A stretch of DNA of 64,000 bases. Source: a virus. The notes beneath the pieces are model-generated. The model did not search any database. It was not told the DNA's origin and worked only from the letters and a program-made list of their open reading frames with translations. Numbering within the stretch: position 1 is the stretch's first letter; each line of letters begins with the position of its first letter. Positions 3,045 through 62,125 of the stretch are shown piece after piece. The stretch lies in the IMG/VR virus record IMGVR_UViG_3300025093_000020, one strand, 5' to 3'. The position numbers and the translations under genes were made by a program.

Positions 3045-5577
3045 GTGGTCGAACGTAGACCCGAGTTGCCCCGTAGCGCTTGTTGACCTCGTAGGTTCGG
3101 ACCTTGTTTTCGGTCCTCTTCCAGCCGAGAATCTGCATGGCGCGGCCGATCTTCATCGCCTCAATATTGGGCATCTGACCCGGGCGCCCACCCATGACTT
3201 CTTCCCAGATCTGGGCGGTGCATGTTTCGTTCCGCACGACGCGAGTGCTCTCTTCCAGGTCTTCGAAGTCGTCGCCGACATGGCTGTCGAGCCAGACCTC
3301 GATCTTGCCTGCCAGCACGTCTTCCGGCGTCTCCACGCGCCGGCTTTCCTGGATGCTGGCAGCCTCGATCTGCGCGGCCTCGTCGGTCAGGTGCAGCGGC
3401 AGGTCGCCGTTGTGGCGGCGGCGCATCTCCCGGTAAAGGTGGAGGGCTTCCGCCCAGACCTGCAGCACCTCACCGGCCAGCCGCCGGTTGTCGATCTGCC
3501 CTTCCAGGTTGCACTTGATCGGCCAGAAGCGGCGGTTGCCGGTCTGGTCGCGCAGGTACTCGTCATCGTTGGTGGAGCCGAAGAAGATGCACTGCCGCGG
3601 GAACACCTGAACGCGCTTGGCATAGGCCAGACGCCCCTTGTCGTGGGTCCGGGTGACGAACGCCTTGAGGTCGTTGACCTCGGAGCGGTGCATGGTGCTC
3701 AGTTCCCCGAGTTCGAGGATCCACGAGCCCTGCATCACCTCGATCATCTGCTTGGTGTCTTTGATGTCGCCGGTCAGCTCGTCATACCAGTGGAGGGCCA
3801 GCACCTTGATGAAGGTCGACTTCCCCTTACCCTGCACGCCTTCGAGGATCGGCACGAAGTCGAACTTGTGCCCGGGCTCCATGATGCGGGTGACGGCGCC
3901 GACGAGCGTCAGCAGCGAGGCCTGGCGATGGTAGGGGGTATCCTCGCAGCCCAGGTATTCGATAAACAGCCGCTCGCAGCGCGGAATGCCGTCCCACGGC
4001 TGAGCCATGATGGTATCGCGCACCGGGTGGAATGAATGGGTCTGCGCGGCCGAGTCCACCGCGGCTTTCAAATCTCGATCGCTGATCTTGATACCATAGC
4101 CGCCAGCGGTCATCGGAGCTTCAAACATGATCCGCACGGCAATGTCATGACTGTCTGACCAGGCGTCACCATTGGTCGGGTCACCCAATTCCCAGAGGCG
4201 TCCCGTGAGATTGACCACCTCTTTCGCGTTCGAGTGCTCTTTCTTCTTCGCGCGGCCGGGGCGGCGCTTCAGCACCACCATCTGCGTGAATTCGTTGAAC
4301 GCTGCCGTTCCGTAGGTGCGCAGATCGTTCTTGAAGATGGTGGAGATGTTGTAGGATTGACTTTTAAGCTCACCTTCTTCGTTTCTTGCAAGCAAAACGT
4401 GAAAGTCTGAATTGCGTTGGATCGTCGGTTCAGAGCTGATGACCGGCAGCGTGATATTGGGCGTGTCCTCGGCTGTGATTGCTGCTGCGATCGCGTTCGA
4501 AGTCGGGCCGAGCAAATCATCGAAGGATACTTGTTTCACCGCTGCCGCGGTTGCGCCGAGGATGTCGTTCAGATTGTCGAAGCCGTCATAGTCATCCGCT
4601 TCAAGGGCGATTTCCTCTTTCAAGCGATGATCGAGGGCCGCGCGCCGCACAGTGAGAATGGTGATAGGATTGATGGAGTCTGCGCGGATGGACTTCCAGA
4701 TATAAGCTGCGTTCTCTTCGTCGTATTTCTTGGACTGCTCTGCCCATTCACACCAGATCGTGAAACCCTGATCGCTGCCACGGTATTGGTGATGCAGGGC
4801 CTGACCAACCGTCAGCCAAAGCGCGCGATCTTCGACCCATTCTTCTGGGAGATCATCGAGAAACGTAACGATCTCGTCATCATCGAAATCCTTTGGTTCC
4901 AGCGCGAGAATGGTTTCGAGGTCTTCTGGATCCAGTGCGCCGCGGCCTTCCTTTATCCTAACGCCATTCTCAATCAGCGCTTCCGCTGAGACGGTCATCA
5001 GGTAAGGCATGCTCAGTTCTAGCGGGCGCTCCCAAACATACGGTTCTCCGGTATCCGGGTGGATCGATGGCGGAAGGACGATATTCTTTCCGGTTCCACC
5101 GATGTCGATTTCCCAGTAACTCTTCTTCACCTCACGATTGAGCTTCGCGTCAAAAACCATGTCGAAGCCCGCAGAACGCGCGAGCTTTCGGCTTCCAAAG
5201 GGCTTCTCGCTCAGGAAATAAAGATGGCGGCTTTCGCCGCCTGATCCGCTGATGACGGAGGGTAGGGTTCTGGCGGTTGGTGCGATCTGCAGCAGCGTTT
5301 CCCAGGCCTCGTCCGCGAATTCAGTCCTGCGAATGTCGAGATCGATGACGTGGAGATAGAGGTTGCCGACCTTGGACCAGACACCAGGTCGAAAGCCTAT
5401 GTTGTATCCGGGGCGGTATTTGGAGAGCAGGAGCGCTTCATCATAGCGCTCGACCGTGCTCCAGTTCTTCTCGACTGGTCGTTTATTGCGGGTATTGAGC
5501 CAATGCAGCGATACACTCGCCCGCAAGAGCGGACGAACAGAATCCAGCACGCTTTGCAGCGATGGTGTCTCGGTCAT
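3031..5577 (-). CDS. Bifunctional primase-polymerase / VirE-D5-type helicase (848 aa)
   Basis: N-terminal AEP/Prim-Pol signatures: LHVIDLD, GGESRHLYF, PPSIHP. Central PriCT-like segment: WLTVGQALHH...WCEWA. C-terminal P-loop GVQGKGKST with ILELGE. Confidence 0.85.
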   Translation of the reverse strand: MTETPSLQSVLDSVRPLLRASVSLHWLNTRNKRPVEKNWSTVERYDEALLLSKYRPGYNIGFRPGVWSKVGNLYLHVIDLDIRRTEFADEAWETLLQIAPTARTLPSVISGSGGESRHLYFLSEKPFGSRKLARSAGFDMVFDAKLNREVKKSYWEIDIGGTGKNIVLPPSIHPDTGEPYVWERPLELSMPYLMTVSAEALIENGVRIKEGRGALDPEDLETILALEPKDFDDDEIVTFLDDLPEEWVEDRALWLTVGQALHHQYRGSDQGFTIWCEWAEQSKKYDEENAAYIWKSIRADSINPITILTVRRAALDHRLKEEIALEADDYDGFDNLNDILGATAAAVKQVSFDDLLGPTSNAIAAAITAEDTPNITLPVISSEPTIQRNSDFHVLLARNEEGELKSQSYNISTIFKNDLRTYGTAAFNEFTQMVVLKRRPGRAKKKEHSNAKEVVNLTGRLWELGDPTNGDAWSDSHDIAVRIMFEAPMTAGGYGIKISDRDLKAAVDSAAQTHSFHPVRDTIMAQPWDGIPRCERLFIEYLGCEDTPYHRQASLLTLVGAVTRIMEPGHKFDFVPILEGVQGKGKSTFIKVLALHWYDELTGDIKDTKQMIEVMQGSWILELGELSTMHRSEVNDLKAFVTRTHDKGRLAYAKRVQVFPRQCIFFGSTNDDEYLRDQTGNRRFWPIKCNLEGQIDNRRLAGEVLQVWAEALHLYREMRRRHNGDLPLHLTDEAAQIEAASIQESRRVETPEDVLAGKIEVWLDSHVGDDFEDLEESTRVVRNETCTAQIWEEVMGGRPGQMPNIEAMKIGRAMQILGWKRTENKVRTYEVNKRYGATRVYVRPQSND

Positions 5578-7695: not shown

Positions 7696-7865
7696 TGGCC
7701 GTTCAGGTTGTGCTGCCGGATGAACGGTTGGCAACCTGCTCCTGCGGGGTGCAAGTCAGATTCCGCCCCGCAGACATCGACCTCTTTCACAACACCACTG
7801 CCGGGGTGAAAGAGGTCGATGAGTTCGTAACGTGCCCCTGTTGCGGAAAGAAGATCTTCGTCTGA
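7695..7865 (+). CDS. small zinc-ribbon protein (56 aa)
   Basis: Cys pairs CSCG...CPCCG. ATGA overlap with the H-NS-like gene stop. Confidence 0.5.
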   Translation: MAVQVVLPDERLATCSCGVQVRFRPADIDLFHNTTAGVKEVDEFVTCPCCGKKIFV

Positions 7866-9223
7866 TGGCACACGCAACGAAAACTCCCCCTTCATCTGCC
7901 GACCGTTGGTTCTATTGCACGGCCTCAGTCCTTCTGATCCTGCAATTGATGCGTAATGGCGAATTAAAGGAGAGCGATCTTGAACGCGACGAGGGTGTCA
8001 CCGAGGATGAGGTGCTTGAATTCGGCGGTTATGATGACGTTGTATTGGGCAATTCTATCTCAGACTCTTTCTCCGCCGAAGGGACTGTGCTTCATGAAGT
8101 TCGGGCCAGTTGTCTAGAATTCAACCTTGATCCCATGAACTTTGTCGGATTGGAAATGAGTGCTGATGGGCATTCGTTTCTGATTGATGACGATAAGGCC
8201 GATCGATTGGTTGCAGGCATAGATTGGATCCGGGAGCACACACGCGCGCCATACGTGGAAACCCGGGTTGATCTATCCGAATGGCTGCCGGAACAGTTCG
8301 GCACCTGCGATACTTTCTGGCTGAAACCTGTTCGCGGCAAGCGTGATATTTTCGATCTGTACGTCTCCGATTATAAGAACGGCATCGGTAGACCTGTCGA
8401 TGCCGAAGGGAACAAACAGCTTCGGATCTACGCGCTTGGCGCCTGGGTTTTCCTCGGAAAGCCGAATATCCGAAAGATCATCATCAACATCGATCAGCCG
8501 CGCGTCGGCGGCATGAAGTATGACGAGTTTGATTTCCAAGAATTGCTTGAGTTCGGCGAAGAATTGAAGCGAATTTGGGAACGCATCGAAAGCGGAAACG
8601 TTGAATTCGTGCCTACCATCAAAGGTTGTCAGTTCTGCCCGGTGAGGAAGACTGACGCAGGCTGCGCCGCCTATAACCGATGGCTGTTGCTGATGTGCGG
8701 GACCGCCTTCCTTGATCCGTCAGAACCCTATCCCAAATTCAAAGACCCTGAGCAGATCACCGCCGCGCAGAGGTACTATATCGTGCGGCACGCGGCAGCG
8801 TTGAAGTCCTGGCTGGAGAAGCTGTATGAGGCCTCTCTGCGCGCTGCTATGGCGGGTAACCCCGACCCTGGGTCCAAGGCGATCGAGGGTAACGGTGGCA
8901 AGCGCTACTTCACCAATGAAGAGCGCGCACAGCGCATCATGAAACACGCTCTTGGGGATCAGGCATTCAAGCCCCGCGAGTTGATCGGTTTCACGGAGCT
9001 TGACCGGCTGATGAAGCCCGGTCGCAAGAAGGATGGATTTCCGCGGCACTATGCGCTGCTGGAAAAGCTGGCAGCTCGGCCAAAGGGGAAGCCCAAATTG
9101 GTGTCAGCGGATCACCCGAAACCTGCACTGGAAACGGTGTCTACGGATGATTTCGAGGATCTACCGGAAAAAGGATCAGTGCGCCGCGTCGAGATTTCGA
9201 CCGACGATTTCGCAGACCTTTGA
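7865..9223 (+). CDS. PD-(D/E)XK Cas4/RecB-like nuclease (DUF2800-like, 452 aa)
   Basis: The N-terminal Cys (WFYCTAS) plus the C-terminal CQFCPVRKTDAGC cluster is typical of Cas4-type Fe-S nucleases. A DYK motif is present. It has the canonical position upstream of the SSB-like and polymerase genes. TGATG coupling at the start. Confidence 0.65.
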   Translation: MAHATKTPPSSADRWFYCTASVLLILQLMRNGELKESDLERDEGVTEDEVLEFGGYDDVVLGNSISDSFSAEGTVLHEVRASCLEFNLDPMNFVGLEMSADGHSFLIDDDKADRLVAGIDWIREHTRAPYVETRVDLSEWLPEQFGTCDTFWLKPVRGKRDIFDLYVSDYKNGIGRPVDAEGNKQLRIYALGAWVFLGKPNIRKIIINIDQPRVGGMKYDEFDFQELLEFGEELKRIWERIESGNVEFVPTIKGCQFCPVRKTDAGCAAYNRWLLLMCGTAFLDPSEPYPKFKDPEQITAAQRYYIVRHAAALKSWLEKLYEASLRAAMAGNPDPGSKAIEGNGGKRYFTNEERAQRIMKHALGDQAFKPRELIGFTELDRLMKPGRKKDGFPRHYALLEKLAARPKGKPKLVSADHPKPALETVSTDDFEDLPEKGSVRRVEISTDDFADL

Positions 9224-9247: not shown

Positions 9248-9928
9248 ATGGGAAAACTGATGGAACGCGACAACACGGGTCGCACGACAATGCTCACCCG
9301 GGTGCGCGCGTCTTTCGCGGAATCGTTGCAGGAGAAAAAGGCGTCGAAGGCCGATCCGACGAAACTGTCTCACGCGGCGAACTTCATCATCGAACGGGAT
9401 AGCCCTGATTTCGAGAGCAACAAGGCAGCGGTTGTCGCCGCGCTCCAGAATACCTGCAAGGAAGCCAAGCGGTCGGAAAACTGGTGGAAACAGCTTTTTG
9501 ACGACGATCCCAAGCAGCTTGCCTTCCGCAAAGGGGAACGCTTCAAGGACAAGAACGGCGAGATCTACAAGGGTTATGAGAACAATCTGATTGTCGTCGG
9601 GAAAGGGCCGAAAGCCGGCGCCGAGCGGCCGAGCAAACTGCTTGATCGCTACAAGCGTCCCATCGAAGTGAATGACATCAATGATGTGATTTACAACGGC
9701 ACCATGTGCGACGTGGTGATCTCCTGGTACTATACCGACAAACACGGCCCCGCGCGCATTACCTGCTCGATTGAGGCCGTGCGGTCGTGGCAGGAGGGGG
9801 AACGCCTCGGCGGCGGCGGTATCTACGTCGATGAGGACGATTTCGATACCATTGAAGGCGACGACGATGGGTTCGACTCGCCTCCCAAAACCCAGACCTC
9901 CAGCAGCACCAGCCTCCTGGATTTCTGA
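9248..9928 (+). CDS. phage ssDNA-binding protein candidate (DUF2815-like, 226 aa)
   Basis: Synteny (nuclease, this gene, polymerase) and an acidic aromatic tail DEDDFDTIEGDDDGFD...SLLDF. RBS AGGAGAG. Confidence 0.5.
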   Translation: MGKLMERDNTGRTTMLTRVRASFAESLQEKKASKADPTKLSHAANFIIERDSPDFESNKAAVVAALQNTCKEAKRSENWWKQLFDDDPKQLAFRKGERFKDKNGEIYKGYENNLIVVGKGPKAGAERPSKLLDRYKRPIEVNDINDVIYNGTMCDVVISWYYTDKHGPARITCSIEAVRSWQEGERLGGGGIYVDEDDFDTIEGDDDGFDSPPKTQTSSSTSLLDF

Positions 9929-19129: not shown

Positions 19130-19578
19130 CCTATTACTACGTCCATGACGAGAGCGGCTGCGCCTTCCTGAGCGACGACCCGCCTGAAGTCGTGTGTAAG
19201 GAACCCTTGGTCGAATGCGTGCCGCGCGACATTTATCTGCGCGCCTGCGAGCGTTATGGGCAACCCCCTGAGCCCCATCCGAACCCGTGCCTGGAGACCC
19301 GCCGCCGCATTCGAGTGGCCGTGGCAGCATGGGCTTACGAGGTGCACAACGATCCGATCATTTCTGACGCCGCCTTCGATGCGCTCGCGCGGGAGATCGA
19401 TCTCAATCGCAGCACGACAAACATCGAAATGGACCGTTGGTTCTCGAGGGAGTTCAGCTCGGACACTGGCGCCTGGGTGCATCGGCATCCTGATACCGCG
19501 GGCCTTGAGCGCGTCTACCGCATGCTGCGCGGGTATCGGCAGCACCCCGCACTCTGGATCTGGATGGTGGCAGCATGA
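19126..19578 (+). CDS. hypothetical protein (150 aa) with a LigA domain-Ia-like segment
   Basis: ATGA overlap with the methyltransferase stop. AYEVHNDPIISDAAFDALAREIDL resembles the YxVxDxPxIxDAEYDxLxREL block of NAD-dependent ligase domain Ia. The match is weak and short. Confidence 0.45.
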   Translation: MTYYYVHDESGCAFLSDDPPEVVCKEPLVECVPRDIYLRACERYGQPPEPHPNPCLETRRRIRVAVAAWAYEVHNDPIISDAAFDALAREIDLNRSTTNIEMDRWFSREFSSDTGAWVHRHPDTAGLERVYRMLRGYRQHPALWIWMVAA

Positions 19579-20378
19579 AGCGTGCTGATGGGAAGACCCG
19601 GATTACAGCCGAACGAATTCGTGCCGCCATGGCAAAGCGTTGGGCTGATCCCGAGTGGGCGATCATGTGGGAAGTCGGTGAAGGCACCGGAGCCGCCAGC
19701 GGCCGCTATGCTGACGCTGTGATGATGTCGCTTTGGCCGTCGCGCGGACTGGAACTCCATGGCGTTGAAATCAAGGTGAGCCGATCTGACTGGAGGCGCG
19801 AAGCAGCTGACCCCAGTAAGGCCGAAGCGATTGCGAAGTATTGTGACCGTTGGTGGATCCACACACCTCCTGGAATCGTGGATGATCTGTCCGACCTTCC
19901 GCCGGCGTGGGGTTTGCGTGAATTCGACGGCAAGAACTGGAACACGCGGCGAGAGGCCGAGAAGACCGAAGCGGAGCAGGTCACTCGCAGGTTTCTAGCC
20001 GCGATGTTGCGGCGTGCCGATGGGACGATGCGAGCATTGGCTGCTGAGGCTGCGAGCGATGGAATGGCGGCCGTGGTGGTGGAAGAAGAGAAGCTGCGCG
20101 CTGAATATGCTAAGCGGGTCGAAGATGCTGTGAAGCGCAAGACCTCCGAATTAGATGAGGTTCGGGCCAACCTCAAAGCCTTCGAATCCGGTTTCGGCAT
20201 CTCAGCCGCCCACTATGCTGACTTTGGTCGCATTGGCAAAGCGGCACGGGCCTTGGCGGATCTCGACAGCAAAGGATGGCCACCGCTTGCTGATCGCTTG
20301 CGCCGTGCCGCCAATGAAATCGACGCTTTGAGCGAATGCCGGTTTTCCCAAACTGATCTGACGGAGTTGTTGCAATGA
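19575..20378 (+). CDS. MmcB-like PD-(D/E)XK protein with coiled-coil C-terminus (267 aa)
   Basis: The YADAVMM...LHGVEIKVSRSDW (D...ExK) block is typical of the MmcB family. ATGA coupling at the start. Confidence 0.55.
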   Translation: MKRADGKTRITAERIRAAMAKRWADPEWAIMWEVGEGTGAASGRYADAVMMSLWPSRGLELHGVEIKVSRSDWRREAADPSKAEAIAKYCDRWWIHTPPGIVDDLSDLPPAWGLREFDGKNWNTRREAEKTEAEQVTRRFLAAMLRRADGTMRALAAEAASDGMAAVVVEEEKLRAEYAKRVEDAVKRKTSELDEVRANLKAFESGFGISAAHYADFGRIGKAARALADLDSKGWPPLADRLRRAANEIDALSECRFSQTDLTELLQ

Positions 20379-21846: not shown

Positions 21847-23103
21847 GTGTCCCAGTCAGACCCCTTGTTTCCCACCCCGATGACGGTAAATCTCACGGTA
21901 GACGCAAATTTATACCGTGAGCCGCCCATGAGCCTTACCGATGCCGCCTGCCGTGCGGCCAAGCCCGCCGAGAAACCCCGCAAGCTGAGCGACAGCGGCG
22001 GGCTCTATCTCTTCGTCAGCCCCAGCGGCACGAAGACCTGGCGCCTGGACTATGCCTTCCAGGGCAAGCGCAAGACAGCATCCCTCGGCCGATACCCAGG
22101 TGTGAAGCTGGTGGAAGCCCGTGAGGAACGCGACCGCATGAAGGCGGAAGTCGCCGCCGGCCGTGACCCTATGCAACGTTATAACATAACATTTGAGAAG
22201 GTGGCGCGAGACTGGTTCGCTGCAAACCGCTCCAAGTGGAAGTCATCCTATTCGGAGCGCTTCTGGCGCCGGATCGAGCAGGACATTTTGACCAGTCTTG
22301 GTGACCGGGTGGTTAGCGAGGTCCAGCCACAGGAGATCCTGAAGCTGTTGCGGGAGATCGAGGAACGGGATGCTATCTACACGGCCAAGCGCATCTGCCA
22401 GATGGTCAGCACCATCTATCGCTTTGCGATCTCAGAGGGGCATGCTTCCAGCAACCCGGCTGAGAACCTGATGAGCGCGCTGAAGCCACTGCCGAAGCGC
22501 GAGCACCGGGCGGCCCTGGCTGAGAGCGATCTGCCTGAGTTCTTTCGCCGCCTGCGCGCCTATGACGGCGATGAGACGACAAAGCTTGGCCTCGCGATCG
22601 TGATGCACACCTTCGTGCGGACGAACGAGATCCGCTATGCCACCTGGTCAGAGATCGACGGTGACGTGTGGCGCATCGAGGGGGATCGGATGAAGATGGG
22701 CAAGACGCACCTGATCCCCCTAAGCCGCCAGGTGCAGGAACTGCTGGCGCAACTGCGGGAGCTGACCGGCCACGCGCCGTGGCTGCTTCCGGGCCGCGAT
22801 AGCAATCGTAAACCGGTCTCCGAAAACACCTTGCTTTATGCGCTGCGCAACATGGGGTATCATCGAACAGCAACCGTCCATGGTTTCCGGGGAACTGCGT
22901 CAACGATCCTGAACGAAAGCGGAAAGTGGAATTCAGACTGGATCGAGCGGCAGCTTGCGCACGTTCCCAAAGACCAAGTGCGATCAGCATACAATGCTGC
23001 GCAATGGATGGAGCAACGGCGTGAAATGATGCAGTGGTATAGCGACCTACTTGAAAGAAATGCAAAAGAGGATAAATTGAGCTTCAATAGCTTGTTGATG
23101 TGA
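21847..23103 (+). CDS. int: Tyrosine recombinase, P4-type phage integrase (418 aa)
   Basis: N-terminal DUF4102-like GLYLFVSPSGTKTWRLDY. Catalytic HGFRGTAST (HxxR) and LAHVPKDQVRSAYN (catalytic Tyr). Confidence 0.9.
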   Translation: MSQSDPLFPTPMTVNLTVDANLYREPPMSLTDAACRAAKPAEKPRKLSDSGGLYLFVSPSGTKTWRLDYAFQGKRKTASLGRYPGVKLVEAREERDRMKAEVAAGRDPMQRYNITFEKVARDWFAANRSKWKSSYSERFWRRIEQDILTSLGDRVVSEVQPQEILKLLREIEERDAIYTAKRICQMVSTIYRFAISEGHASSNPAENLMSALKPLPKREHRAALAESDLPEFFRRLRAYDGDETTKLGLAIVMHTFVRTNEIRYATWSEIDGDVWRIEGDRMKMGKTHLIPLSRQVQELLAQLRELTGHAPWLLPGRDSNRKPVSENTLLYALRNMGYHRTATVHGFRGTASTILNESGKWNSDWIERQLAHVPKDQVRSAYNAAQWMEQRREMMQWYSDLLERNAKEDKLSFNSLLM

Positions 23104-23847: not shown

Positions 23848-24036
23848 ATGGCTGAACTGACAAACGACCGATTTTTGCGCCTGAAACAAGTGGTTGAGAT
23901 CACGAGTCTCTCCAAGAGCGAAATTTACCGGCAGGTCAACGATGGCCGGTTTCCTAAGCAGCAGCGCCGATCGCACAAGGTGGCGGTGTGGCGGCAAAGC
24001 GAGGTCGAGGCTTGGATGCGAGACACCAATGCCTGA
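23848..24036 (+). CDS. alpA: AlpA-family HTH regulator / excisionase-like (62 aa)
   Basis: RFLRLKQVVEITSLSKSEIYRQVNDGRFPKQ...WRQSEVEAWM matches the AlpA/MerR-like excisionase signature. Confidence 0.8.
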   Translation: MAELTNDRFLRLKQVVEITSLSKSEIYRQVNDGRFPKQQRRSHKVAVWRQSEVEAWMRDTNA

Positions 24037-24778
24037 CTTCAATGACCTCTTGGGCGATGAGCCTCCGAAGAAGCCGTCGAAGTCGAAGCGCGCCCGCGGG
24101 CGCCCGTCGCGCGAGGCAATGCTTGAGCGCGACACCGAAGAGTTGGCTGCAGAGCAGGCGAGACTGGGCCTCACCGATAACAAGACGCCGCATTACAGCG
24201 AGTTCCGCAAGCCGGTCGGCATCACATTCTTGGCCGCCGTCATGGGCCGCCAGCCAAAGCAGATCGAGAAGCGCCTCGAAAAGTGCCCGGTTCATTCCTG
24301 GCACCTGGTCTCTGGCAAGCAGAAGCCGCTGTACGAGTTCATGGACGCCATGTCCTATCTGGTGCCGCCGCGGGGCAGCATCGAAGACTGGTTCGCCCAG
24401 CAGAACGCCGCCAGCTTGCCCCCCTACGTCAACAAGATGTGGTGGGACTCAGCGGCGCAGCGCAACCGGGTGATGCTCGATTCCAACGATCTTTGGCACA
24501 CGGATGATGTGCTGGTGCTGCTCGGTCGCGCCCACATGGCGATCAAGGAAGAATGTAAGATGTGGGTCGAGGAATTGCCTGAAAAGGAGATTCTGACCGA
24601 CAAACAATACGCCGCTCTTATCGACGCGCAGAACCGTCTGGTTCTGAACCTACGCAAGATCTTCATCGAGATGCCGCGTGAAACCCTGTCCATGACTGCT
24701 CACATTCAGAGCGAACTGGACGCCAGCGGCAGGGTGCCGAATGACGCAGATCGACCGAACGCTGACGACGAAGAGTGA
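24029..24778 (+). CDS. putative terminase small subunit (249 aa)
   Basis: It lies immediately upstream of, and overlaps, the gpA-type large terminase. Basic N-terminus KKPSKSKRARGRPSR. The call rests on position. Confidence 0.5.
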   Translation: MPDFNDLLGDEPPKKPSKSKRARGRPSREAMLERDTEELAAEQARLGLTDNKTPHYSEFRKPVGITFLAAVMGRQPKQIEKRLEKCPVHSWHLVSGKQKPLYEFMDAMSYLVPPRGSIEDWFAQQNAASLPPYVNKMWWDSAAQRNRVMLDSNDLWHTDDVLVLLGRAHMAIKEECKMWVEELPEKEILTDKQYAALIDAQNRLVLNLRKIFIEMPRETLSMTAHIQSELDASGRVPNDADRPNADDEE

Positions 24779-27067: not shown

Positions 27068-27298
27068 ATGCCCGTTCTTCCCTCTGCTGCAGATCGGTTG
27101 CTTGAAGCGCGGATTGCGCTTCACGCCCTGCTGACCGGGCAACAGGAAGCCGAGGTGCGTGACAGCAATGGCGAAAGCGTGCGGTTCACCTCCGCCAATG
27201 CCTCGCGCCTGCGCGAGTACATCGCCCAGCTTGAAGCTGAGGTTGCCGGCCTGAACCCGATCAAACAACGGGCTCCGTTGAGGCCCATCTGGTCATGA
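27068..27298 (+). CDS. Head-tail joining protein, lambda gpW-like (76 aa)
   Basis: ARIALHALLTGQQ...VRFTSANASRLREYIAQLEAEV aligns with lambda gpW ARAALHDLMTGKR...VEFTATSVSDLKKYIAELE. Confidence 0.8.
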   Translation: MPVLPSAADRLLEARIALHALLTGQQEAEVRDSNGESVRFTSANASRLREYIAQLEAEVAGLNPIKQRAPLRPIWS

Positions 27299-28962
27299 GC
27301 GCGTCGTTCAACGATCTGCTGAGCACTGAAGTCTCCCAGGTGCCCGCGCAGGCGCGTCCGCCCGGCGTCTCCGCGTCGGGCGGCGTGGCCTATGACGGCG
27401 CCAGTCAGATCGATCAGCTCGCAACCTGGTACACGCCGATCCGATCTGCAGACGCAGACATCCTGCCCAACAAGGCTGTGATCGACGGTCGCGCCCGCGA
27501 CATGACGAACAACGACGCCTACGTCGCCGGCGGCGCCACGCTGCACAAAGACGCGATGGTTGGCGCCCAATATCGCCTGAATGCGAAGCCCATGACCAAG
27601 GTGCTCTGGGGCGCGGATGACGAAACCTGGGAAGAGGAATTTCAGGAGGAAGTCGAGACGAAGTTCACGTTGTGGGCCGAGTCCGATCTTCACTGGTCCG
27701 ACTCCCAGCGGCGTCTGAACTTCACGGATCAGATCCGGCTCGCCGTGGGGGTGCACGTCACTGGTGGCGAATTCCTCGGCATTGCCGACTGGCAGGACGA
27801 TGGCCGCGCTTATGCTTCGTCCCTCTTGGCCATCGATGCCGACCGCCTCAGCACGCCGAATGACCGCGTGCTCGACATGAATCTCCGGATCCGGGATGGC
27901 GTGGAGTTCAATCGCCGCGGACAGCCGATCGTCTATCACATCCGAAATGAACACCCGAGCGACTATTACAGCGGCTTCAACCACATGCTCGAAGTGTTCA
28001 AGTGGACGCGGGTGCGCCGGGAAACCCGTTGGGGCCGCCAGAACGTGCTGCATATCTACGACATGCTGCGGCCGGATCAGTCCCGCGGCATTGCAGCCAT
28101 GGTCACGGCGCTCACTGAGATGCGCATGCTCAAGCATTTCCGGAAGACGGAACTACAGCGCGCAGTGATTGCCGCGACCTATGCGGCGTCGATCGAAACC
28201 GACCTGCCAACCGATGCCGCTTATGCAATGGGCACGATGGACAGCGCAGGCGAAAACTATTCGGAATTCGCGCAGCAATACATGGCGATGATGAGCGGGT
28301 ATTTCGAAAACGCCCGCACGATCCGCATGGATGGCGCAAAGATCCCCGTCTTTGTCCCGAACACCAAGCTGAGAATCCAGAACCCGGGTGCCGCATCGCC
28401 GGCCGGTGATAAATTCGAGGCGTCGATGCTGCGTTATATCGCGGCAAGCCTCGGGGTTTCCTACGAGCAGCTTTCCCGCGATTACAGCAACACCAACTAT
28501 TCGTCGGCACGCGCTTCCATTGGCGAAGCACTCCGCGGCATGCTGCCCAAGAAACGAATGGTTGCCGATCGCACCGCCAATTTCATCTATCGGCTCTGGC
28601 TGGAAGAGGCGATCAATTACAATCGGCTCGAAACGCTGAAGCGGCCCAATGTTCCCTCCTTCTACGAAGGATTGAACACAGAGGCCTATGTGAATGCGGA
28701 ATGGGTTGGCGCGGGGCAGGGGCAGATTGATCCCCTGAAAGAAACTCAGGCGGCAATGCTGAAAGTGCAGAACGGCTTCTCGACACTGGAGCATGAAACC
28801 GCCCGGATGAACGGTGGTGATTGGCGCTCTGTGTCTCGCCAACGCGCCCGCGAGCAGCGCTTGCTGAGGGATCAGTACAAGGTCGGTTCGGTTTACGACA
28901 ACCAGAACAGCGATATGACCAATGCGCTCTCCGGCAACAAAGGGGAAGCGGATGCCACTTGA
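27295..28962 (+). CDS. Portal protein, lambda gpB family (555 aa)
   Basis: Position after gpW, its size, and ATGA coupling. The N-terminus is MSASFNDLLS. Confidence 0.8.
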   Translation: MSASFNDLLSTEVSQVPAQARPPGVSASGGVAYDGASQIDQLATWYTPIRSADADILPNKAVIDGRARDMTNNDAYVAGGATLHKDAMVGAQYRLNAKPMTKVLWGADDETWEEEFQEEVETKFTLWAESDLHWSDSQRRLNFTDQIRLAVGVHVTGGEFLGIADWQDDGRAYASSLLAIDADRLSTPNDRVLDMNLRIRDGVEFNRRGQPIVYHIRNEHPSDYYSGFNHMLEVFKWTRVRRETRWGRQNVLHIYDMLRPDQSRGIAAMVTALTEMRMLKHFRKTELQRAVIAATYAASIETDLPTDAAYAMGTMDSAGENYSEFAQQYMAMMSGYFENARTIRMDGAKIPVFVPNTKLRIQNPGAASPAGDKFEASMLRYIAASLGVSYEQLSRDYSNTNYSSARASIGEALRGMLPKKRMVADRTANFIYRLWLEEAINYNRLETLKRPNVPSFYEGLNTEAYVNAEWVGAGQGQIDPLKETQAAMLKVQNGFSTLEHETARMNGGDWRSVSRQRAREQRLLRDQYKVGSVYDNQNSDMTNALSGNKGEADAT

Positions 28963-32183: not shown

Positions 32184-32223
32184 GGGTGATCCGGTGGGTC
32201 ACCCTTTCACCTTTTGCGGGAGA
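32184..32223 (+). terminator. Hairpin plus conserved 19-nt leader TTTCACCTTTTGCGGGAGA
   Basis: GGGTGA-N9-TCACCC at 32184-32204, then a 19-mer identical to 9954-9972. It follows the major capsid gene. Confidence 0.4.
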
Positions 32224-32231
32224 TAACCCAA

Positions 32232-52932: not shown

Positions 52933-54354
52933 TTAAAGGAGAAGTTCGTTAAAGCTCATACTGGCTAATGTTTCGTTAACTTCCGGAAACCTTTGGTAAA
53001 GGAACTCCAGGTAACTCGGTTCGGCCTCCATTAAGACACATTCGAAACCTTCCCGACGAGCTGCCTCAGCGGTCGTGCCGCTGCCTGCGAATGGATCGAG
53101 GACAACGCCGCCGGGCGGGGTGATATGACGGATTAAATACTGCATCAGCGCGATAGGTTTTACCGTGGGATGCTTAGAACCGCCGCGATCCAGCTTACCC
53201 GCTTTGCTGTGGTAGAACAGGGGATTACCGCAGTCGGTGCCGATTTCACCAAGCGCGATTGCCGTCTCATAATCTTCATCGGTGAGCGGGAATTGGTGGA
53301 AGAAGCGCGCGGCCGAACCTTCGTCACCATAACCAACTTCGACGCGATCGTTCAGCCCAAGATCCCCAGCCATGGAATGACTCGTGGCAATCTTTCGGCG
53401 ATTGCCCGGTTTCCCTGACTTGCCGTTTGGAAACATCGCGACAACCTCGGACGAGCCGTCAAGAATCAGGTTTGCCGGGTGCCGACCATTGGCGTTTGGA
53501 AAGACCACTCGGCGATCAGCTTCTGTCGGAAAAATGTGTCCACCGTTACCACCATTGATCTTTTCTCGCATGTGAGGATTCAGTGCGAGGTTTGATCCAT
53601 CACCCACCGTCACATGCGGGACAAGGCAACCTTTGATGTGCACGGCCCCAAGACCATGCTTCAAAAGGTTCGCCGCGCCGGTCTTGGACTCAAACGGCTT
53701 CTGGCCGAGGTAGATCGGCTCAAGGGCTGGCTTCTGTGCTTGCGTACCATAGGCCCAGCCGCTCCATTCAGCGGCCTCAGCGGTGGCAGGCACGTATTCG
53801 CCGGGCTGGTATTCGCGCCCGTTGTCCTTGATCCAGGATCCGGTTGCGTGCTGATCGGCGCCGGGGATCATTCGCTTCACAGGGGCGCCGGTCGGCACCA
53901 CCTCACCCTTCTTCCCGAAGTGCTTGTCAATGGCTTTGTCGGCAGCGTGGGCCTTTGGAAAGCCTTGGCCGAACACCCAGCCGTGCATCGGGTGCATGAT
54001 GAACCCGGCCAGCTCCATGGCGCACGCCTGCCAGTGGCCCGTGCGGCTACCGCTGAACGCAAAGACATAGCCGCCGGGCAACAGGATGTCGTAGATCAGC
54101 GCCCAGAACTCCGGATCCCGCTCAATGCCGGTCGCATCCCACTTGGTGCCCATGAAGCCACCCGACAGACGCGCGAAGCTGCCGTCATTGTTCTCGGTTC
54201 GAGCTGGGGCGCTACCCTCTTTCCCGAAGCGCTTCTGCACGCTGACGAGGCCGTAAGGCGGATCGGTGACCACGGAGTGAACCCGGCGACCTTCTGCGAT
54301 CATTCGCCGCAAACTTTCCCGGTTATCTCCCGGGATAATTGATAGTGTGGACAC
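52933..54354 (-). CDS. beta-class DNA methyltransferase (N6-adenine or N4-cytosine, 473 aa)
   Basis: Motif IV VVTDPPYG near the N-terminus and motif I VVLDPFAGSGTTAEAA near the C-terminus, which is the beta-class order. The two motifs are separated by an unusually long region. The C-terminus is SFNELLL. Confidence 0.85.
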   Translation of the reverse strand: MSTLSIIPGDNRESLRRMIAEGRRVHSVVTDPPYGLVSVQKRFGKEGSAPARTENNDGSFARLSGGFMGTKWDATGIERDPEFWALIYDILLPGGYVFAFSGSRTGHWQACAMELAGFIMHPMHGWVFGQGFPKAHAADKAIDKHFGKKGEVVPTGAPVKRMIPGADQHATGSWIKDNGREYQPGEYVPATAEAAEWSGWAYGTQAQKPALEPIYLGQKPFESKTGAANLLKHGLGAVHIKGCLVPHVTVGDGSNLALNPHMREKINGGNGGHIFPTEADRRVVFPNANGRHPANLILDGSSEVVAMFPNGKSGKPGNRRKIATSHSMAGDLGLNDRVEVGYGDEGSAARFFHQFPLTDEDYETAIALGEIGTDCGNPLFYHSKAGKLDRGGSKHPTVKPIALMQYLIRHITPPGGVVLDPFAGSGTTAEAARREGFECVLMEAEPSYLEFLYQRFPEVNETLASMSFNELLL

Positions 54355-56818: not shown

Positions 56819-57013
56819 TCACACCAAAAGCGCCGTGAAATTCGTCGTCTTCACCGGGTATTGGTGTTCAGTCGTAAACTTGCGTTCAGCGGATGCCATT
56901 GCTGAAATGGTGTTTTCGCGCATGTCACCAATGGAAAAGAAAGCGCCATTGCGCGCTTCACAGATCCATGTGTTTGGCGCCACCAATCGAACAACGAACA
57001 GCGACGGCTTCAT
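56819..57013 (-). CDS. small early protein (64 aa) ending NFTALLV
   Basis: ORF track. ATGA coupling. Confidence 0.5.
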   Translation of the reverse strand: MKPSLFVVRLVAPNTWICEARNGAFFSIGDMRENTISAMASAERKFTTEHQYPVKTTNFTALLV

Positions 57014-57276
57014 ACCAGCAACTCCGTGAAACTGGCTTTCTCAGGTTCAGAGATTTCGCCCAGGCAGGAAGTCAGGGCTTCTGCCAAGGTGGGCTTCCAC
57101 TTTCCGCGCTTCCATTCCAACTGCATTTCGTTGGATTTGATCGACACCTGCCACATGCCGCGCTCTGTCTCGCGTGTCGGTTCATCGCGCATGGTGTAAA
57201 CCGGCGACGAGATCGACAGCTTTTCAATTCCCTGCGTCAGCAGGAAATCTTCAATCTGCTCGACTGTGAGGTTCAT
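57010..57276 (-). CDS. small early protein (88 aa) ending SFTELLV
   Basis: ORF track. Paralogous to the next gene: KWKPTLAEAL against KWAATLDEAF, and the same tail. Confidence 0.55.
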   Translation of the reverse strand: MNLTVEQIEDFLLTQGIEKLSISSPVYTMRDEPTRETERGMWQVSIKSNEMQLEWKRGKWKPTLAEALTSCLGEISEPEKASFTELLV

Positions 57277-57557
57277 ACCAGGAGATCGGTGAAGCTGGGC
57301 TTCTGGGCCGCCTCCGCGGGCAGATCGTCAAAGTCGGTAGCGCGCACCTTGGCAGGTGCAGCCTTCAGCGCGGCCTCAAACGCTTCGTCCAGTGTAGCCG
57401 CCCATTTGTGGACGGGGATGCACTCGCACAGCGCGCCCGGGCTGCTGTAGTAGATCGACGCCAACGCCTTCCCATTGGACCCAACGCCAAACGTGATCGA
57501 CGTGATTTCGTGCTCTGCAATGATCGAGGCCAATGGGGCGAGCGTCAGCATGCTCAC
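57273..57557 (-). CDS. small early protein (94 aa, GTG start) ending SFTDLLV
   Basis: ORF track. GTGA overlap. It also carries TDFDDLPAE. Confidence 0.55.
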   Translation of the reverse strand: MSMLTLAPLASIIAEHEITSITFGVGSNGKALASIYYSSPGALCECIPVHKWAATLDEAFEAALKAAPAKVRATDFDDLPAEAAQKPSFTDLLV

Positions 57558-57901
57558 ACCAGCAGGTCGAAGGTCGCAGGGGCGGGCGAGGGGGCAGCGG
57601 GCTCGTCCAGGAGCAACAGGACCTTGGGCGCCTCAGCAGCGGGGCTCACCTGCCGCGCGCCGTTCTCGTCCTTGTAGGGCACAGAATCTGCAGCCGGCAC
57701 GTCATAGGTCAGCAGACCCGTGTCCATGTTCAAGCTGAGGCCGGTCTCATACTTCTCGCCCTCGGGGAAGATCTCCTTGAGCACTTCGAGCAGCGGCCCT
57801 TTCATCAGGGACAGCGTGACCGGCCGTCCGGCCAGTGTGGTCTGCAGGGTGATGACGCCCTTGGTCTTGCGGATGCCGCCGCGCAGCGCAGAAAGTTGCA
57901 T
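57554..57901 (-). CDS. small early protein (115 aa) ending TFDLLV
   Basis: ORF track. A Pro/Ala-rich linker precedes the tail. The leader TTTCACTTTTATGGAGA lies upstream. Confidence 0.55.
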   Translation of the reverse strand: MQLSALRGGIRKTKGVITLQTTLAGRPVTLSLMKGPLLEVLKEIFPEGEKYETGLSLNMDTGLLTYDVPAADSVPYKDENGARQVSPAAEAPKVLLLLDEPAAPSPAPATFDLLV

Positions 57902-57931: not shown

Positions 57932-58195
57932 TCAGACCAGGAGGCCCACTGCCTCACGGTACAGTTGCTCAACGGATTCGAATTCGGCCAAGGTGTCGGG
58001 GTCAGTCTTGCGATCTCGGATGACCTTGCGCATCACCTTGACATCGTAGCCGCGCGCCTTGGCCTCAGCGTAGATCTCACGCTTGCGAGCCTTGATGTCC
58101 TGTTCCTCGGACTCCATCTGCTCGATCTGCTCGATGAACTGGTTCAGCTCATCTGTCGCAGCGCTTGGTGCGCCGTTGTGACCGATGTCGCTCAT
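57932..58195 (-). CDS. gapR: GapR / DUF2312 family nucleoid-associated protein (87 aa)
   Basis: LNQFIEQIEQMESEEQDIKARKREIYAEAKARGYDVKVMRKVIRDRK matches the GapR block L..IIDRVERLE.E...I....KEVYAEAK..GFDVKVLKKVVR.RK. Confidence 0.8.
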   Translation of the reverse strand: MSDIGHNGAPSAATDELNQFIEQIEQMESEEQDIKARKREIYAEAKARGYDVKVMRKVIRDRKTDPDTLAEFESVEQLYREAVGLLV

Positions 58196-61755: not shown

Positions 61756-61919
61756 CAGAAGAAGATCCACTTGAGAACGCGATACAGGCCGTAGAGCATC
61801 CCAGTGCCGATGGCCGCAGCAGGCAGGATCCACCACCCCGAAATGAAATAGGGATCGCACTCACGGCCTTTCGCCGCCTTATAGTCAGCGGTCAATTCCT
61901 CGGGTGTCATTTCATTCAT
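61755..61919 (-). CDS. small TM protein (54 aa), not in the ORF track
   Basis: Hand translation gives MNEMTPEELTADYKAAKGRECDPYFISGWWILPAAAIGTGMLYGLYRVLKWIFF. ATGA overlap with the stop at 61916. Confidence 0.45.
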   Translation of the reverse strand: MNEMTPEELTADYKAAKGRECDPYFISGWWILPAAAIGTGMLYGLYRVLKWIFF

Positions 61920-62125
61920 GATAGGAGATCCTTGAAGCTGGTGGCGATGGCGGCCGATTGCTTGCAGAATTCCTCGACCTGGCGATTCAAGGCTTCGATC
62001 TGCCGGTTCGATTGAAGCAAGCGGAGGGTGAGTTCTTCATTCTGGGAGCGCAATTTCCCGTTGCGCTCCCGAAGCTCCAGCAGTTCATTCTGCAGGCGGC
62101 CGATTTTCAGATTGGCGGCATCCAT
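61916..62125 (-). CDS. coiled-coil protein (69 aa) ending SFKDLLS
   Basis: ORF track. Confidence 0.5.
   Translation of the reverse strand: MDAANLKIGRLQNELLELRERNGKLRSQNEELTLRLLQSNRQIEALNRQVEEFCKQSAAIATSFKDLLS

What the first reader, a model, noticed from the sequence alone, without database searches (positions are those of the whole stretch)
56819..57901. Four consecutive small early ORFs share the C-terminal tail F-(T)-x-L-L-V; two are tandem paralogues
The four translationally coupled genes 57554..57901, 57273..57557, 57010..57276 and 56819..57013 end in PATFDLLV, KPSFTDLLV, KASFTELLV and TTNFTALLV.

In three of them the tail follows a Pro/Ala/Glu-rich, probably disordered linker. ORFs 57010 and 57273 also share an internal block, (K/H)KW(K/A)(P/A)TL(A/D)EA(L/F), so they are tandem duplicates.

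This looks like a cassette of adaptor or inhibitor proteins that all plug into the same partner through a flexible tail. Anti-host or anti-defence small proteins would fit that picture.
Basis: seen in the sequence. Interest (0 to 1): 0.7.

Follow-up and report, generated by a model that had tools for sequence, protein, structure and literature searches.

The report
Shared docking tail across phage proteins
The common tail on four small phage genes is one copy of a short docking peptide carried by at least a dozen proteins of this phage, including DNA-packaging, integration, methylation and replication proteins, and it most likely tethers them all to one still unidentified partner.

Summary
Four overlapping minus-strand ORFs end in TFDLLV, SFTDLLV, SFTELLV and NFTALLV. 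Their Leu, Thr and Val codons differ, so the conservation is at the peptide level.

The tail is not specific to this cassette. In this temperate Casjensviridae-like phage of an alphaproteobacterium, the same motif ([ST]-F-x-[DE]-L-L-x) ends the integrase, an N6-methylase and two other proteins. It opens the small terminase (TerS) and the portal, and it lies in the linker of the primase-helicase.

The motif recurs in about 60 related phages and prophages. Its exact spelling differs between genomes but is shared among the proteins of one genome (permutation p ≤ 5e-5). That pattern is what many clients co-evolving with one receptor would produce.

Related lineages use other spellings on an overlapping set of clients. 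[quoted passage not shown]

An anti-host or anti-defence role is not. The receptor remains unidentified. The large terminase (TerL) is my best guess, at about 0.3. DNA polymerase, the major capsid protein, the β-clamp, degron and capsid-cargo readings are all weakened. ORFs A–D are conserved "domain–linker–tail" proteins with no known fold.

The parts
57554..57901 (-). ORF A (115 aa). It has a folded 68-aa alpha/beta domain, a disordered acidic Pro/Ala linker and the tail TFDLLV (57557-57574). An internal second motif copy, KVLLLLDEP, lies at 57599-57625.
   Evidence: Sequence. The AF2 model has pLDDT 86-97 for residues 1-68 and low confidence after about residue 70. There are 35 homologue clusters, and more than half end in [DE][DE]LLV. 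Orthologues are found in L001, L003 and RcIroh gp58.
57273..57557 (-). ORF B (92 aa from the ATG at 57551; 94 aa from the GTG at 57557). Its tail is SFTDLLV (57276-57296). A second copy, TDFDDLP, lies at 57315-57338.
   Evidence: Orthologues are L003_85 (E 4e-9) and L001_83 (E 1e-5).
57010..57276 (-). ORF C (88 aa). It has an alpha-beta-beta-beta-alpha domain, a short Glu/Pro linker and the tail SFTELLV (57013-57033).
   Evidence: Homologues P0001-P0009 share a conserved core, a variable linker and tails SLTELL, TDLTGVL or IVGLLV. AF2 gives pLDDT 65 overall, with the tail below 50.
56819..57013 (-). ORF D (64 aa). Its tail is NFTALLV (56822-56842).
   Evidence: There is a weak orthologue, RcIroh gp55 (E 3e-4), which ends in TDLSDLFQ.
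61916..62125 (-). A 69-aa coiled-coil-like protein ending in SFKDLLS (61919-61939).
52933..54354 (-). N6/N4 DNA methyltransferase ending in SFNELLL (52936-52956).
   Evidence: Pfam PF01555. Tail. The RcIroh orthologue gp52 ends in TDLSDLF...ELLV.
21847..23103 (+). P4-type tyrosine integrase ending in SFNSLLM (23080-23100).
   Evidence: Pfam. Tail. Integrases of related prophages end in the motif spelling of their own genome.
24029..24778 (+). Small terminase (TerS). Its N-terminus is MPDFNDLLG (24029-24055), followed by a basic linker.
   Evidence: BLAST to RcIroh gp23. Start and motif: (PWM 19.9 bits). The motif is conserved at the TerS N-terminus in most related genomes where a TerS start is visible.
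27295..28962 (+). Lambda-family portal. Its N-terminus is MSASFNDLLS (27295-27324), followed by a roughly 35-aa flexible linker.
   Evidence: Pfam PF05136. Motif.
3031..5577 (-). Primase-polymerase/VapE helicase. Motif copies lie in the interdomain linker (VSFDDLLG at 4507-4530; DNLNDILG at 4555-4578) and near the C-terminus (DDFEDLEE at 3250-3273).
   Evidence: Pfam. Motifs. RcIroh gp1 has the motif at the same position. It is C-terminal in Ruegeria phage V7 and in the Chi-like phage.
7832..9223 (+). DUF2800/Cas4-like nuclease. It ends in a shortened motif, STDDFADL (9197-9220), with DDFEDLPE at 9146-9169.
   Evidence: Pfam.. The full motif is at the C-terminus in V7 gp79.
9248..9928 (+). Enc34/T7-gp2.5-type SSB with an acidic disordered tail ending in TSLLDF (9908-9925). 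It is a probable member of the same class.
   Evidence: Pfam PF10991. Tail. In V7 and the Chi-like phage, the SSB tail has the same spelling as the other clients.
19575..20378 (+). A 267-aa protein (PHROG 14517) ending in TDLTELLQ (20352-20375), with DDLSDLPP at 19881-19904.
57932..58195 (-). GapR-like DNA-binding protein directly upstream of ORF A. Its ..GLLV ending is probably the normal end of the family, not a tag.
   Evidence: Pfam PF10073, with the match running to residue 84 of 87. GapR homologues in other phages end in ..AILDDD..NNILDV..ALGMV and ..ALLV.

Best explanation
The tail is a short linear docking motif. It is probably an N-capped amphipathic turn with three hydrophobic positions (Φ-x-x-Φ-Φ) and acidic or Ser/Thr flanks. 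It sits at a free protein end on a disordered tether.

This phage carries it on at least 12 proteins. ORFs A-D are four small conserved "folded domain – linker – tag" proteins. The tag holds them on the same receptor that also receives TerS, the portal, the integrase, the methylase, the primase-helicase and the nuclease.

Shown: the motif exists; it is placed at protein termini; it is conserved at the peptide level; it is spread over many protein families; and its spelling is genome-specific and concerted.

Inferred: there is one common receptor, and it is phage-encoded and oligomeric, because several clients carry tandem copies. Also inferred: the network links replication, recombination and methylation enzymes and small accessory proteins to the DNA-packaging machine.

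My best single guess for the receptor is the large terminase TerL, at about 0.3. Next come another tail-less conserved protein such as the SNF2 helicase, or a host protein.
For: Terminal enrichment. Seven of 12 six-frame hits abut a stop codon. In family loci 20 of 84 core hits are C-terminal, against 0 of 64 in control loci.

Peptide-level selection. The tails use synonymous codons. In homologues the linkers vary while the tails are kept.

Many client families. In the window these are the integrase, methylase, TerS, portal, primase-helicase, nuclease and small ORFs. In RcIroh there are about ten proteins. In prophages of Mesorhizobium, Asticcacaulis, Sphingomonas and others, the clients include integrases, an AlpA excisionase, C5 methylases and a ligase-like protein.

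Concerted spelling. Within a genome, the TerS and portal 8-mers match at 4.90 of 8 positions, against 3.37 between genomes (p ≤ 5e-5). C-terminal tails match their own genome's TerS/portal motif at 4.68 of 7 positions, against 2.81 for other genomes (p ≤ 5e-5). Examples are L078 DPLxDVLG, L048 DEFEAL[LM], L023 DDFAxLM and L034 VDL[ST]DL.

Tandem copies occur in A, B and several relatives.

Sister lineages use a different spelling on an overlapping client set, including the SSB. Ruegeria phage V7 uses DDLLG and the Chi-like phage uses DDEDEV.

Support for TerL as receptor. It is conserved in all lineages at 42-69% identity, and it never carries the tag. In lambda, the homologous gpA is listed as contacting Nu1 (TerS), B (portal) and FI (PMC3224144).
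Against: No binding was tested, and the receptor was not identified.

A scan for columns in TerL, portal, protease, gpW and TerS that covary with motif spelling found only the motif columns themselves.

ORFs A-D lie in an operon with nucleotide-metabolism genes, not in the packaging module.

In lambda, the known TerS-TerL and TerL-portal contacts use other regions of the proteins, and lambda has no tag network.

Genome-specific spelling could also track host differences, because the hosts of most loci are unknown.

Within the window, the SSB tail (SLLDF) and the nuclease tail (DDFADL) fit the motif only loosely.
Confidence: 0.55

Rival explanations
1. The receptor is a host hub. The tags would plug phage proteins into a host protein such as the β sliding clamp, the SSB-tail-binding proteins, or another DNA-associated hub. 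ORFs A-D would be host-directed adaptors or inhibitors.
For: The architecture resembles known hub-binding motifs: terminal position, flexible tethers, tandem copies and clients that act on DNA. A host receptor would be present throughout infection, which removes the timing problem a late phage receptor might have for A-D. Spelling differs most between phages of different host orders, such as Sphingomonadales and Rhizobiales.
Against: The motif lacks the Gln and the spacing of the clamp consensus QL[SD]LF (consensus recalled from my own knowledge). The phage DNA polymerase carries no tag. Spelling varies finely between related phages, whereas pockets of conserved host hubs are nearly invariant. 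A Paracoccus yeei myophage has no tag, while a P. yeei prophage of this family has five. There is no similarity to any anti-defence or defence-related family.
Confidence: 0.2
2. T7-like replisome docking. As with the acidic tails of T7 gp2.5 and gp4, the tags would bind basic patches on the phage DNA polymerase.
For: The SSB is of the gp2.5 type (PF10991; PMC5686142). In V7 and the Chi-like phage, the SSB, the primase and the nuclease carry the common tail. The polymerase is tail-less.
Against: V7 and the Chi-like phage have a polymerase that gives no BLAST hit to the window/RcIroh polymerase (18-23% identity in alignment). Yet V7 shares the DDLLG spelling with L022, which has the window-type polymerase. 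This model also gives no reason for TerS, the portal, the integrase and the excisionase to be clients.
Confidence: 0.08
3. The tags are autoinhibitory DNA-mimic tails with no shared receptor. Each acidic or hydrophobic tail would fold back on its own protein's DNA-binding surface, as described for SSB tails.
For: Most clients bind DNA. Removing the Enc34 SSB tail makes the protein also bind dsDNA (PMC5686142). Many tails are acidic.
Against: This does not explain why unrelated folds in one genome share the same spelling, down to the flanking residues. It also does not explain the strict Φ-x-x-Φ-Φ core. The Paracoccus variants (SLSALLI, SLTALLA) are hardly acidic.
Confidence: 0.07
4. The tags are portable degrons. 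They would mark proteins for Lon, ClpXP or FtsH so that early and lysogeny-related proteins are short-lived.
For: The tags are hydrophobic C-terminal residues on flexible ends. [quoted passage not shown] From my own knowledge, Int, Xis and CcrM-type methylases are unstable in other systems.
Against: The TerS and portal copies are N-terminal, and the primase copies are internal. Abundant essential proteins are clients: the SSB, the primase, the portal and TerS. The strongly acidic variants (DDEDEV) are unlike known degrons.
Confidence: 0.05
5. The tags are capsid-targeting peptides. Tagged proteins would be loaded into the procapsid and injected, like T4 internal proteins or encapsulin cargo.
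For: The lambda portal leader (IPTLLGPDG, removed in the prohead) and the C-terminus of the scaffold Nu3 (VNDLLNTPV) resemble the motif. From my own knowledge, injected methylases and anti-restriction proteins exist in P1 and T4.
Against: TerS, the SSB, the primase and the excisionase are implausible cargo. The capsid protein type differs between genomes without any link to tag spelling.
Confidence: 0.04
6. The shared tail is an artefact at the DNA level. It would reflect a conserved ribosome-binding or coupling sequence, or a repeat, rather than a peptide.
For: All four stop codons overlap or abut the next start codon. CTGCTGGTG is a permutation of the 9-bp repeat at 1-183.
Against: The four tails use different codons. 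The integrase and methylase tails are not followed by coupled genes. The motif is conserved as a peptide across genomes with no DNA similarity.
Confidence: 0.01

Closest known systems
Acidic C-terminal tails of T7 gp2.5 (SSB) and gp4 (helicase-primase), which dock on gp5 DNA polymerase
   Same: Several proteins of one phage share a disordered terminal tail that addresses one receptor. The SSB here is of the gp2.5 type (PF10991). In sister lineages the SSB and the primase carry the common tail.
   Different: The motif here has a Φ-x-x-Φ-Φ core rather than an acidic run ending in Phe. It also occurs at N-termini and internally. The client list extends to TerS, the portal, the integrase, an excisionase, methylases and many small ORFs. 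The polymerase is unlikely to be the receptor. Details of the T7 interactions are from my own knowledge and from PMC5686142 and PMC10359462.
Bacterial SSB C-terminal tip (DDDIPF) interactome
   Same: An acidic, hydrophobic terminal peptide on a flexible linker acts as a general docking element.
   Different: The topology is reversed. There, one protein's tail binds many partners. Here, many proteins carry the tail. The sequence differs, and a free C-terminus is not required. This comparison rests on my own knowledge.
Sliding-clamp-binding motifs: bacterial QL[SD]LF, the PIP box, and the T4 gp45-binding tails of gp43, gp33 and gp55
   Same: A terminal short motif on tethers is shared by many DNA enzymes. 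The hydrophobic spacing resembles the PIP box. In T4, replication, late transcription and packaging are linked through shared tails (my own knowledge).
   Different: There is no Gln and no canonical spacing. No clamp-like family was recognised among the window proteins scanned (Pfam and PHROGs). The polymerase lacks the motif.
Lambda packaging contacts: gpA C-terminus with the portal, gpA with Nu1, gpA with FI, and the cleaved portal leader
   Same: The terminase and portal families are the same (PF05876, PF20454, PF05136). The lambda portal leader contains ..TLLGPDG, like the motif.
   Different: Lambda has no genome-wide tag network. Its known contacts use other protein ends. The role of its portal leader is unknown (PMC3224144).
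SspB-type adaptors: substrate-binding domain, linker and ClpX-binding tail
   Same: ORFs A-C have the same "domain – disordered linker – terminal docking peptide" layout.
   Different: There is no significant sequence or fold similarity. The tail chemistry is acidic and hydrophobic, whereas LRVVK is basic.

Membership tests
T7-type shared acidic tail docking | A gp2.5-type SSB with a disordered C-terminal tail | tested here: met
   ORF 9248-9928 matches PF10991 (E 2.4e-13). Its acidic tail ends in TSLLDF. The family is described in PMC5686142.
T7-type shared acidic tail docking | The same tail is present on the helicase-primase | tested here: met
   The window primase has the motif in its linker and near its C-terminus. 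It is C-terminal in V7 gp83 and in the Chi-like primase.
T7-type shared acidic tail docking | The tail ends in an aromatic residue at the C-terminus | tested here: not met
   ORFs A-D end in Val. Other clients end in L, M, S or G. Only the SSB ends in Phe.
T7-type shared acidic tail docking | The receptor is the phage DNA polymerase | tested here: not met
   This was tested only indirectly. Non-homologous polymerases coexist with the same tag spelling. No binding assay was possible.
Beta-clamp-binding motif | Consensus QL[SD]LF or QLxLxL | tested here: not met
   None of roughly 100 instances has the Gln-Leu start. The spacing is Φ-x-x-Φ-Φ.
Beta-clamp-binding motif | The replicative polymerase of the element carries the motif | tested here: not met
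   The polymerases of the window, RcIroh, V7 and the Chi-like phage have no tag at either end.
AAA+ protease degron (ssrA-like or Lon C-degron) | An exposed hydrophobic C-terminus with a free carboxylate | tested here: inconclusive
   This holds for the C-terminal tails. But functionally equivalent copies are N-terminal (TerS, portal) or internal (primase). The Lon rule is taken from PMC11882793.
SspB adaptor family (ORF A) | Sequence or fold similarity to the SspB substrate-binding domain | tested here: not met
   The PDB hit 8et3_Y has E 0.26 with a 4-sequence profile, and hhalign probability is 33%. The hit disappears with a 35-sequence profile. Foldseek does not return SspB. There is no Pfam hit.
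Capsid-targeting or cargo-loading peptides | The tagged proteins are found inside procapsids or virions | not testable with these tools
   No proteome is available. TerS, the SSB, the primase and the excisionase as clients argue against this reading.
GapR family (neighbouring gene 57932-58195) | A GapR DNA-binding domain | tested here: met
   PF10073 matches at E 3.3e-26 over residues 13-84. Its LLV ending is within the family's normal C-terminal variation.
Tandem paralogy of ORF B and ORF C | Significant sequence similarity outside the tail | tested here: inconclusive
   hmmsearch of the C-family profile against B without its tail gives E 0.057. The hhalign result for the B family against the C family is probability 71% and E 3.6e-5. 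That comparison includes the tails. B and C have separate orthologue sets.

The most novel reading that the evidence does not exclude
Casjensviridae-like phages use a genome-specific peptide "address code". One short terminal tag, spelled differently in each phage and co-evolving with a single phage-encoded receptor (most plausibly the large terminase), would physically assemble the replication, recombination, methylation, integration and packaging proteins, plus a set of small unknown proteins, into one DNA-processing super-complex. ORFs A-D would be dedicated subunits or regulators of that complex.
Probability: 0.3. Interest if true: 0.85.

Novelty: new variant of a known kind. Interest (0 to 1): 0.72.

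Why it matters
Shared docking tails are known for a few replisome proteins: T7 gp2.5 and gp4, SSB tips, and clamp-binding motifs. Here one tag spans a dozen or more functionally unrelated phage proteins, including TerS and the portal, and its spelling co-varies within each genome.

If one receptor reads it, three things follow. Replication, methylation, integration and packaging would be physically coupled in a large and widespread phage group, from Chi-like Salmonella phages to roseobacter, Rhodobacter and rhizobial phages. Dozens of orphan small ORFs would gain a first functional handle, because they could be recognised by their tag. And there would be a simple, testable specificity code, through peptide pull-downs and tag swaps in the tractable Rhodobacter capsulatus phages.

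It may also help explain the so far unexplained N-terminal leader of lambda-family portals.

Tried and rejected
- **DNA-level explanation (repeat, ribosome-binding site or coupling signal).** Rejected on codon differences and cross-genome peptide conservation.
- **Literature string searches** for DLSDLF, SFTELL and similar, and for shared phage tail motifs. Nothing relevant was found.
- **SspB-like adaptor lead for ORF A.** Not significant, and lost with a deeper profile and in the fold search.
- **Fold searches.** The ORF C model gave no significant match; the best hits were dsRBD-like at E 0.37. The ORF A model matched only uncharacterised viral proteins.
- **Pfam and PHROGs scans of ORFs A-D.** No hits.
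- **Covariation scan** of tag spelling against columns of TerL, portal, protease, gpW and TerS. Only the motif columns stood out; the rest looked like phylogenetic signal.
- **Searches for the polymerase in prophage genomes and viral contigs**, to test co-occurrence. The pattern searches were too narrow and were uninformative.
- **ORF A and ORF C searches in genome contigs.** Nothing was found.
- **Promoter and terminator scan of the operon.** Counts were no different from shuffled sequence.
- **GapR's ..GLLV as a tag.** Rejected as the normal end of the family.
- **Lambda as a model for the network.** It has no shared tails.
Full report
**1. The observation**

ORF A is 57554-57901, B is 57273-57557, C is 57010-57276 and D is 56819-57013. 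They end in PATFDLLV, PSFTDLLV, ASFTELLV and TNFTALLV.

The junctions are as described. B/C and C/D overlap as GTATGA. A/B and D/next read GTGTGAGCATG. B therefore more probably starts at the ATG at 57551.

The tails use different codons: Leu is ctg, ctc, ttg or ctt; Thr is acc or acg; Val is gtg or gta. What is conserved is the peptide, not a DNA element.

In a six-frame scan, the pattern F.{0,2}[DESNA]LL[VLMIS] occurs 12 times in 64 kb. Seven of these are followed directly by a stop codon in plausible genes. This is far beyond chance.

**2. What the genome is**

The window is a temperate siphovirus genome or prophage. It is syntenic with the Rhodobacter capsulatus phage RcIroh (Casjensviridae), at 28-70% protein identity over about 40 genes.

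The identifiable genes are:
- a primase-polymerase/VapE helicase, a DUF2800/Cas4-like nuclease, an Enc34/T7-gp2.5-type SSB and a DNA polymerase;
- ribonucleotide reductase (RNR), dCMP deaminase and an SNF2 helicase;
- a C5 methylase, a P4-type integrase and an N6 methylase;
- TerS, a gpA-type TerL and a lambda-type portal;
- an S49 protease and D- and E-like head proteins;
- tail genes similar to those of gene transfer agents, and lysis genes.

The cassette lies in a minus-strand operon. That operon also holds a BRCT/zinc-ribbon membrane protein, an HTH protein, a GapR-like protein, MazG and ThyX.

**3. The tail is not confined to the cassette**

In the window, the same motif ends the integrase (SFNSLLM), the N6 methylase (SFNELLL), a 69-aa protein (SFKDLLS) and a 267-aa protein (TDLTELLQ). 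It opens TerS (MPDFNDLLG) and the portal (MSASFNDLLS). It lies in the interdomain linker of the primase-helicase (VSFDDLLG, plus weaker copies). In shortened form it ends the Cas4-like nuclease (DDFADL).

ORFs A and B each carry a second copy upstream of the tail: KVLLLLDEP and TDFDDLP.

RcIroh shows the same picture with a different spelling, TDLSDLF. The motif is at the C-termini of the integrase, two methylases, an exonuclease and gp55, gp57 and gp58. It is at the N-termini of TerS and the portal. It is at the same linker position in the primase.

**4. ORFs A-D are conserved genes with the layout "domain – linker – tag"**

- Homologues of C (P0001-P0009) share a 75-residue core, a variable Pro/Ala linker and tails such as SLTELL, TDLTGVL and IVGLLV.
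- A has 35 homologue clusters at 50% identity. They share a 68-residue domain, an acidic Leu-rich linker and, in more than half of them, the ending [DE][DE]LLV-COOH.
- With tails removed, A, B, C and D each have their own orthologues, in the same order after GapR. These are found in a Paracoccus yeei contig, a metagenomic contig and RcIroh.
- B and C may be remote paralogues (hmmsearch E about 0.05; hhalign 71%). They are not recent tandem duplicates.
- AF2 gives a confident alpha/beta domain for A (residues 1-68, pLDDT 86-97) with a disordered remainder. For C it gives a weaker alpha-beta-beta-beta-alpha domain with a disordered tail.
- Pfam, PHROGs, PDB profile searches and Foldseek did not assign a function.

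**5. The comparative test**

I collected 9 prophage loci and 55 viral contigs anchored on the portal gene.

In most genomes where the gene starts are visible, the N-termini of both TerS and the portal carry the motif. The spelling is specific to each genome and is shared by the two proteins. Examples are MLG in L066, [IL]FDD in L049, FD[ED]LIGV in L025, FAxLMP in L023, DP[LF]xD[IV]LG in L078, DEFEAL[LM] in L048 and VDLSDL[MI]G in L034. Within a genome the two 8-mers match at 4.90 of 8 positions, against 3.37 between genomes. None of 20,000 permutations reached this value.

The C-terminal tails of other genes in those genomes follow the same local spelling. These genes include integrases, an AlpA excisionase, C5 methylases, a ligase-like protein and small ORFs. 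They match their own genome's TerS/portal motif at 4.68 of 7 positions, against 2.81 for other genomes (p ≤ 5e-5).

Controls were eight other GapR-bearing viral loci and a Paracoccus yeei myophage. None has a C-terminal hit (0 of 64 core hits, against 20 of 84 in the family loci; Fisher 4e-6).

Many unrelated proteins sharing a spelling that drifts together is what clients of one co-evolving receptor would show.

**6. Sister lineages**

In Ruegeria phage vB_RpoS-V7, the tail [DE]DLLG-COOH is on the primase-helicase, two small proteins, the Cas4-like nuclease, the SSB and the protein in the FI position. A looser variant ends a methylase. The motif is also at the N-termini of TerS and the portal.

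The Salmonella Chi-like phage FSL SP-039 has the same core genes but a different code. The tail ..[WF]D[DE][DE]DEV-COOH is on the primase, a small protein, the nuclease, the SSB, TerS (at its C-terminus) and the protein in the FI position. The SNF2 helicase ends in a shorter variant, WDDEE. The Enc34 SSB used for the crystal structure also ends in WDEDEV. I read this from the primer in PMC5686142.

"One tail per phage, many clients" is therefore a trait of the whole group. The SSB tail belongs to the class. Lambda shares the terminase and portal families but has no such network.

**7. Which receptor?**

This was not resolved. The arguments for each candidate are as follows.

- **DNA polymerase (the T7 analogy).** Unlikely. 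V7 and the Chi-like phage have a polymerase that gives no BLAST hit to the window/RcIroh polymerase. Yet V7 and L022 (which has the window-type polymerase) share the DDLLG spelling.
- **Major capsid protein.** Unlikely. Two capsid protein types are mixed among genomes without any link to spelling.
- **β-clamp.** The motif lacks the consensus, and the polymerases carry no tag.
- **Degron or capsid cargo.** The SSB, the primase, TerS and the excisionase are implausible substrates or cargo, and some copies are N-terminal or internal.
- **Conserved proteins that never carry the tag.** These are TerL, gpW and the protease, plus the SNF2 helicase in the alphaproteobacterial lineage.

TerL has its own C-terminal motif, [ST]-Φ-A-[DE]-L-[AG]-x-x-L-[AG], which does not covary with the tag. 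In lambda, its homologue gpA is the protein recorded as contacting Nu1, B and FI (PMC3224144). From my own knowledge, T4 TerL is reported to contact the SSB, the late sigma factor, TerS and the portal.

I therefore rank the candidates as TerL first (about 0.3), a host protein at about 0.2, and SNF2 or another phage protein below that. A covariation scan could not confirm any of them.

**8. Verdict**

The anti-host or anti-defence reading is not supported, and neither is the idea that the cassette is special.

The mechanism I commit to is a phage-wide terminal docking tag. It tethers ORFs A-D, together with the packaging, integration, methylation and replication proteins, to one co-evolving receptor that is probably phage-encoded. 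I found no prior description of this in the searchable literature.

Noticed in passing
window 1-183 and 2173-2251: There are twenty head-to-tail copies of CTGGTGCTG at the very start of the window, and about ten copies of CTGCTGCC at 2173-2251. Both lie next to the primase gene. Read across units, the 9-mer is one base away from the E. coli Chi sequence GCTGGTGG. Possible roles are origin iterons, Chi-like sites or a packaging-related repeat.
   Followed up: no
L082 (Salmonella phage FSL SP-039, KC139514) 852-18360: In Chi-like phages, seven proteins share an acidic ..DDEDEV-COOH-type tail. Six end in ..E[DE]DV/..DEV: the primase, a small ORF, the Cas4-like nuclease, the SSB, TerS and the protein in the FI position. 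The SNF2 helicase ends in a shorter WDDEE. This is a different spelling of the same "one tail, many clients" principle.
   Followed up: partly
window 26930-26975; TerL C-termini in L006 and L017-L081: The large terminases of the family end in a separate conserved motif, [ST]-Φ-A-[DE]-L-[AG]-x-x-L-[AG]-COOH (TMAELAERLG in the window). It does not follow the genome-specific tag spelling. It resembles the lambda gpA C-terminus, which binds the portal.
   Followed up: partly
L026 (lambda) 2836-2901 and 5700-5737: The cleaved 22-residue leader of the lambda portal (MKTPTIPTLLGPDG..) and the shared C-terminus of gpC and Nu3 (..AVNDLLNTPV) resemble the motif. Lambda nevertheless has no tag network, and the role of the leader is unknown.
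   Followed up: partly
window 58680-59900 (-): This 406-aa protein has Cys-rich zinc-ribbon-like repeats, a single BRCT domain (PF00533, E 1.7e-13) and apparently hydrophobic C-terminal segments that may span the membrane (judged by eye, not tested). That is an unusual membrane-anchored BRCT protein, sitting two genes upstream of ORF A in the same operon. RcIroh has no homologue.
   Followed up: no
window 10145-12181 compared with L082 6835-8832 and L083 8717-10963: The DNA polymerase has been exchanged within the family. The window/RcIroh type (PHROG 1252) and the Chi/V7 type give no BLAST hit to each other, while the flanking nuclease, SSB, SNF2 and packaging genes are homologous.
   Followed up: partly
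window 32214-32630 (+); RcIroh gp30; V7 gp56; Chi hyp90: The gene after the major capsid gene, in the position of lambda FI, encodes a small protein with a long Ala/Pro/Glu/Lys linker. It ends in the local tail spelling..EDLLG in V7..AEDEV in the Chi-like phage..ENALV in RcIroh and ..AGPLV here. It may be a packaging chaperone that belongs to the network.
   Followed up: partly
window 56679-56816 (-) and 23108-23611 (+): A 45-aa hydrophobic, probably membrane-embedded protein follows ORF D directly. A 167-aa ORF whose N-terminus looks like a signal peptide (MKTIATFLLCVFGTSASA..) sits just after the integrase and may be a lysogenic-conversion gene.
   Followed up: no
L019 2676-5948 and L023 5719-8979: Two prophages, from Asticcacaulis and Sphingomonas, have TerL ORFs of about 1,090 aa instead of about 720. 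The cause could be an intein or an inserted domain.
   Followed up: no
L001 10666-11331 and L003 7116-7814: In the Paracoccus-type relatives, a 221-232-aa protein whose sequence reads like an adenine methylase (NPPF motif, by eye) ends in ..SLTALLA just downstream of the cassette. Methylases are recurrent carriers of the tag.
   Followed up: no
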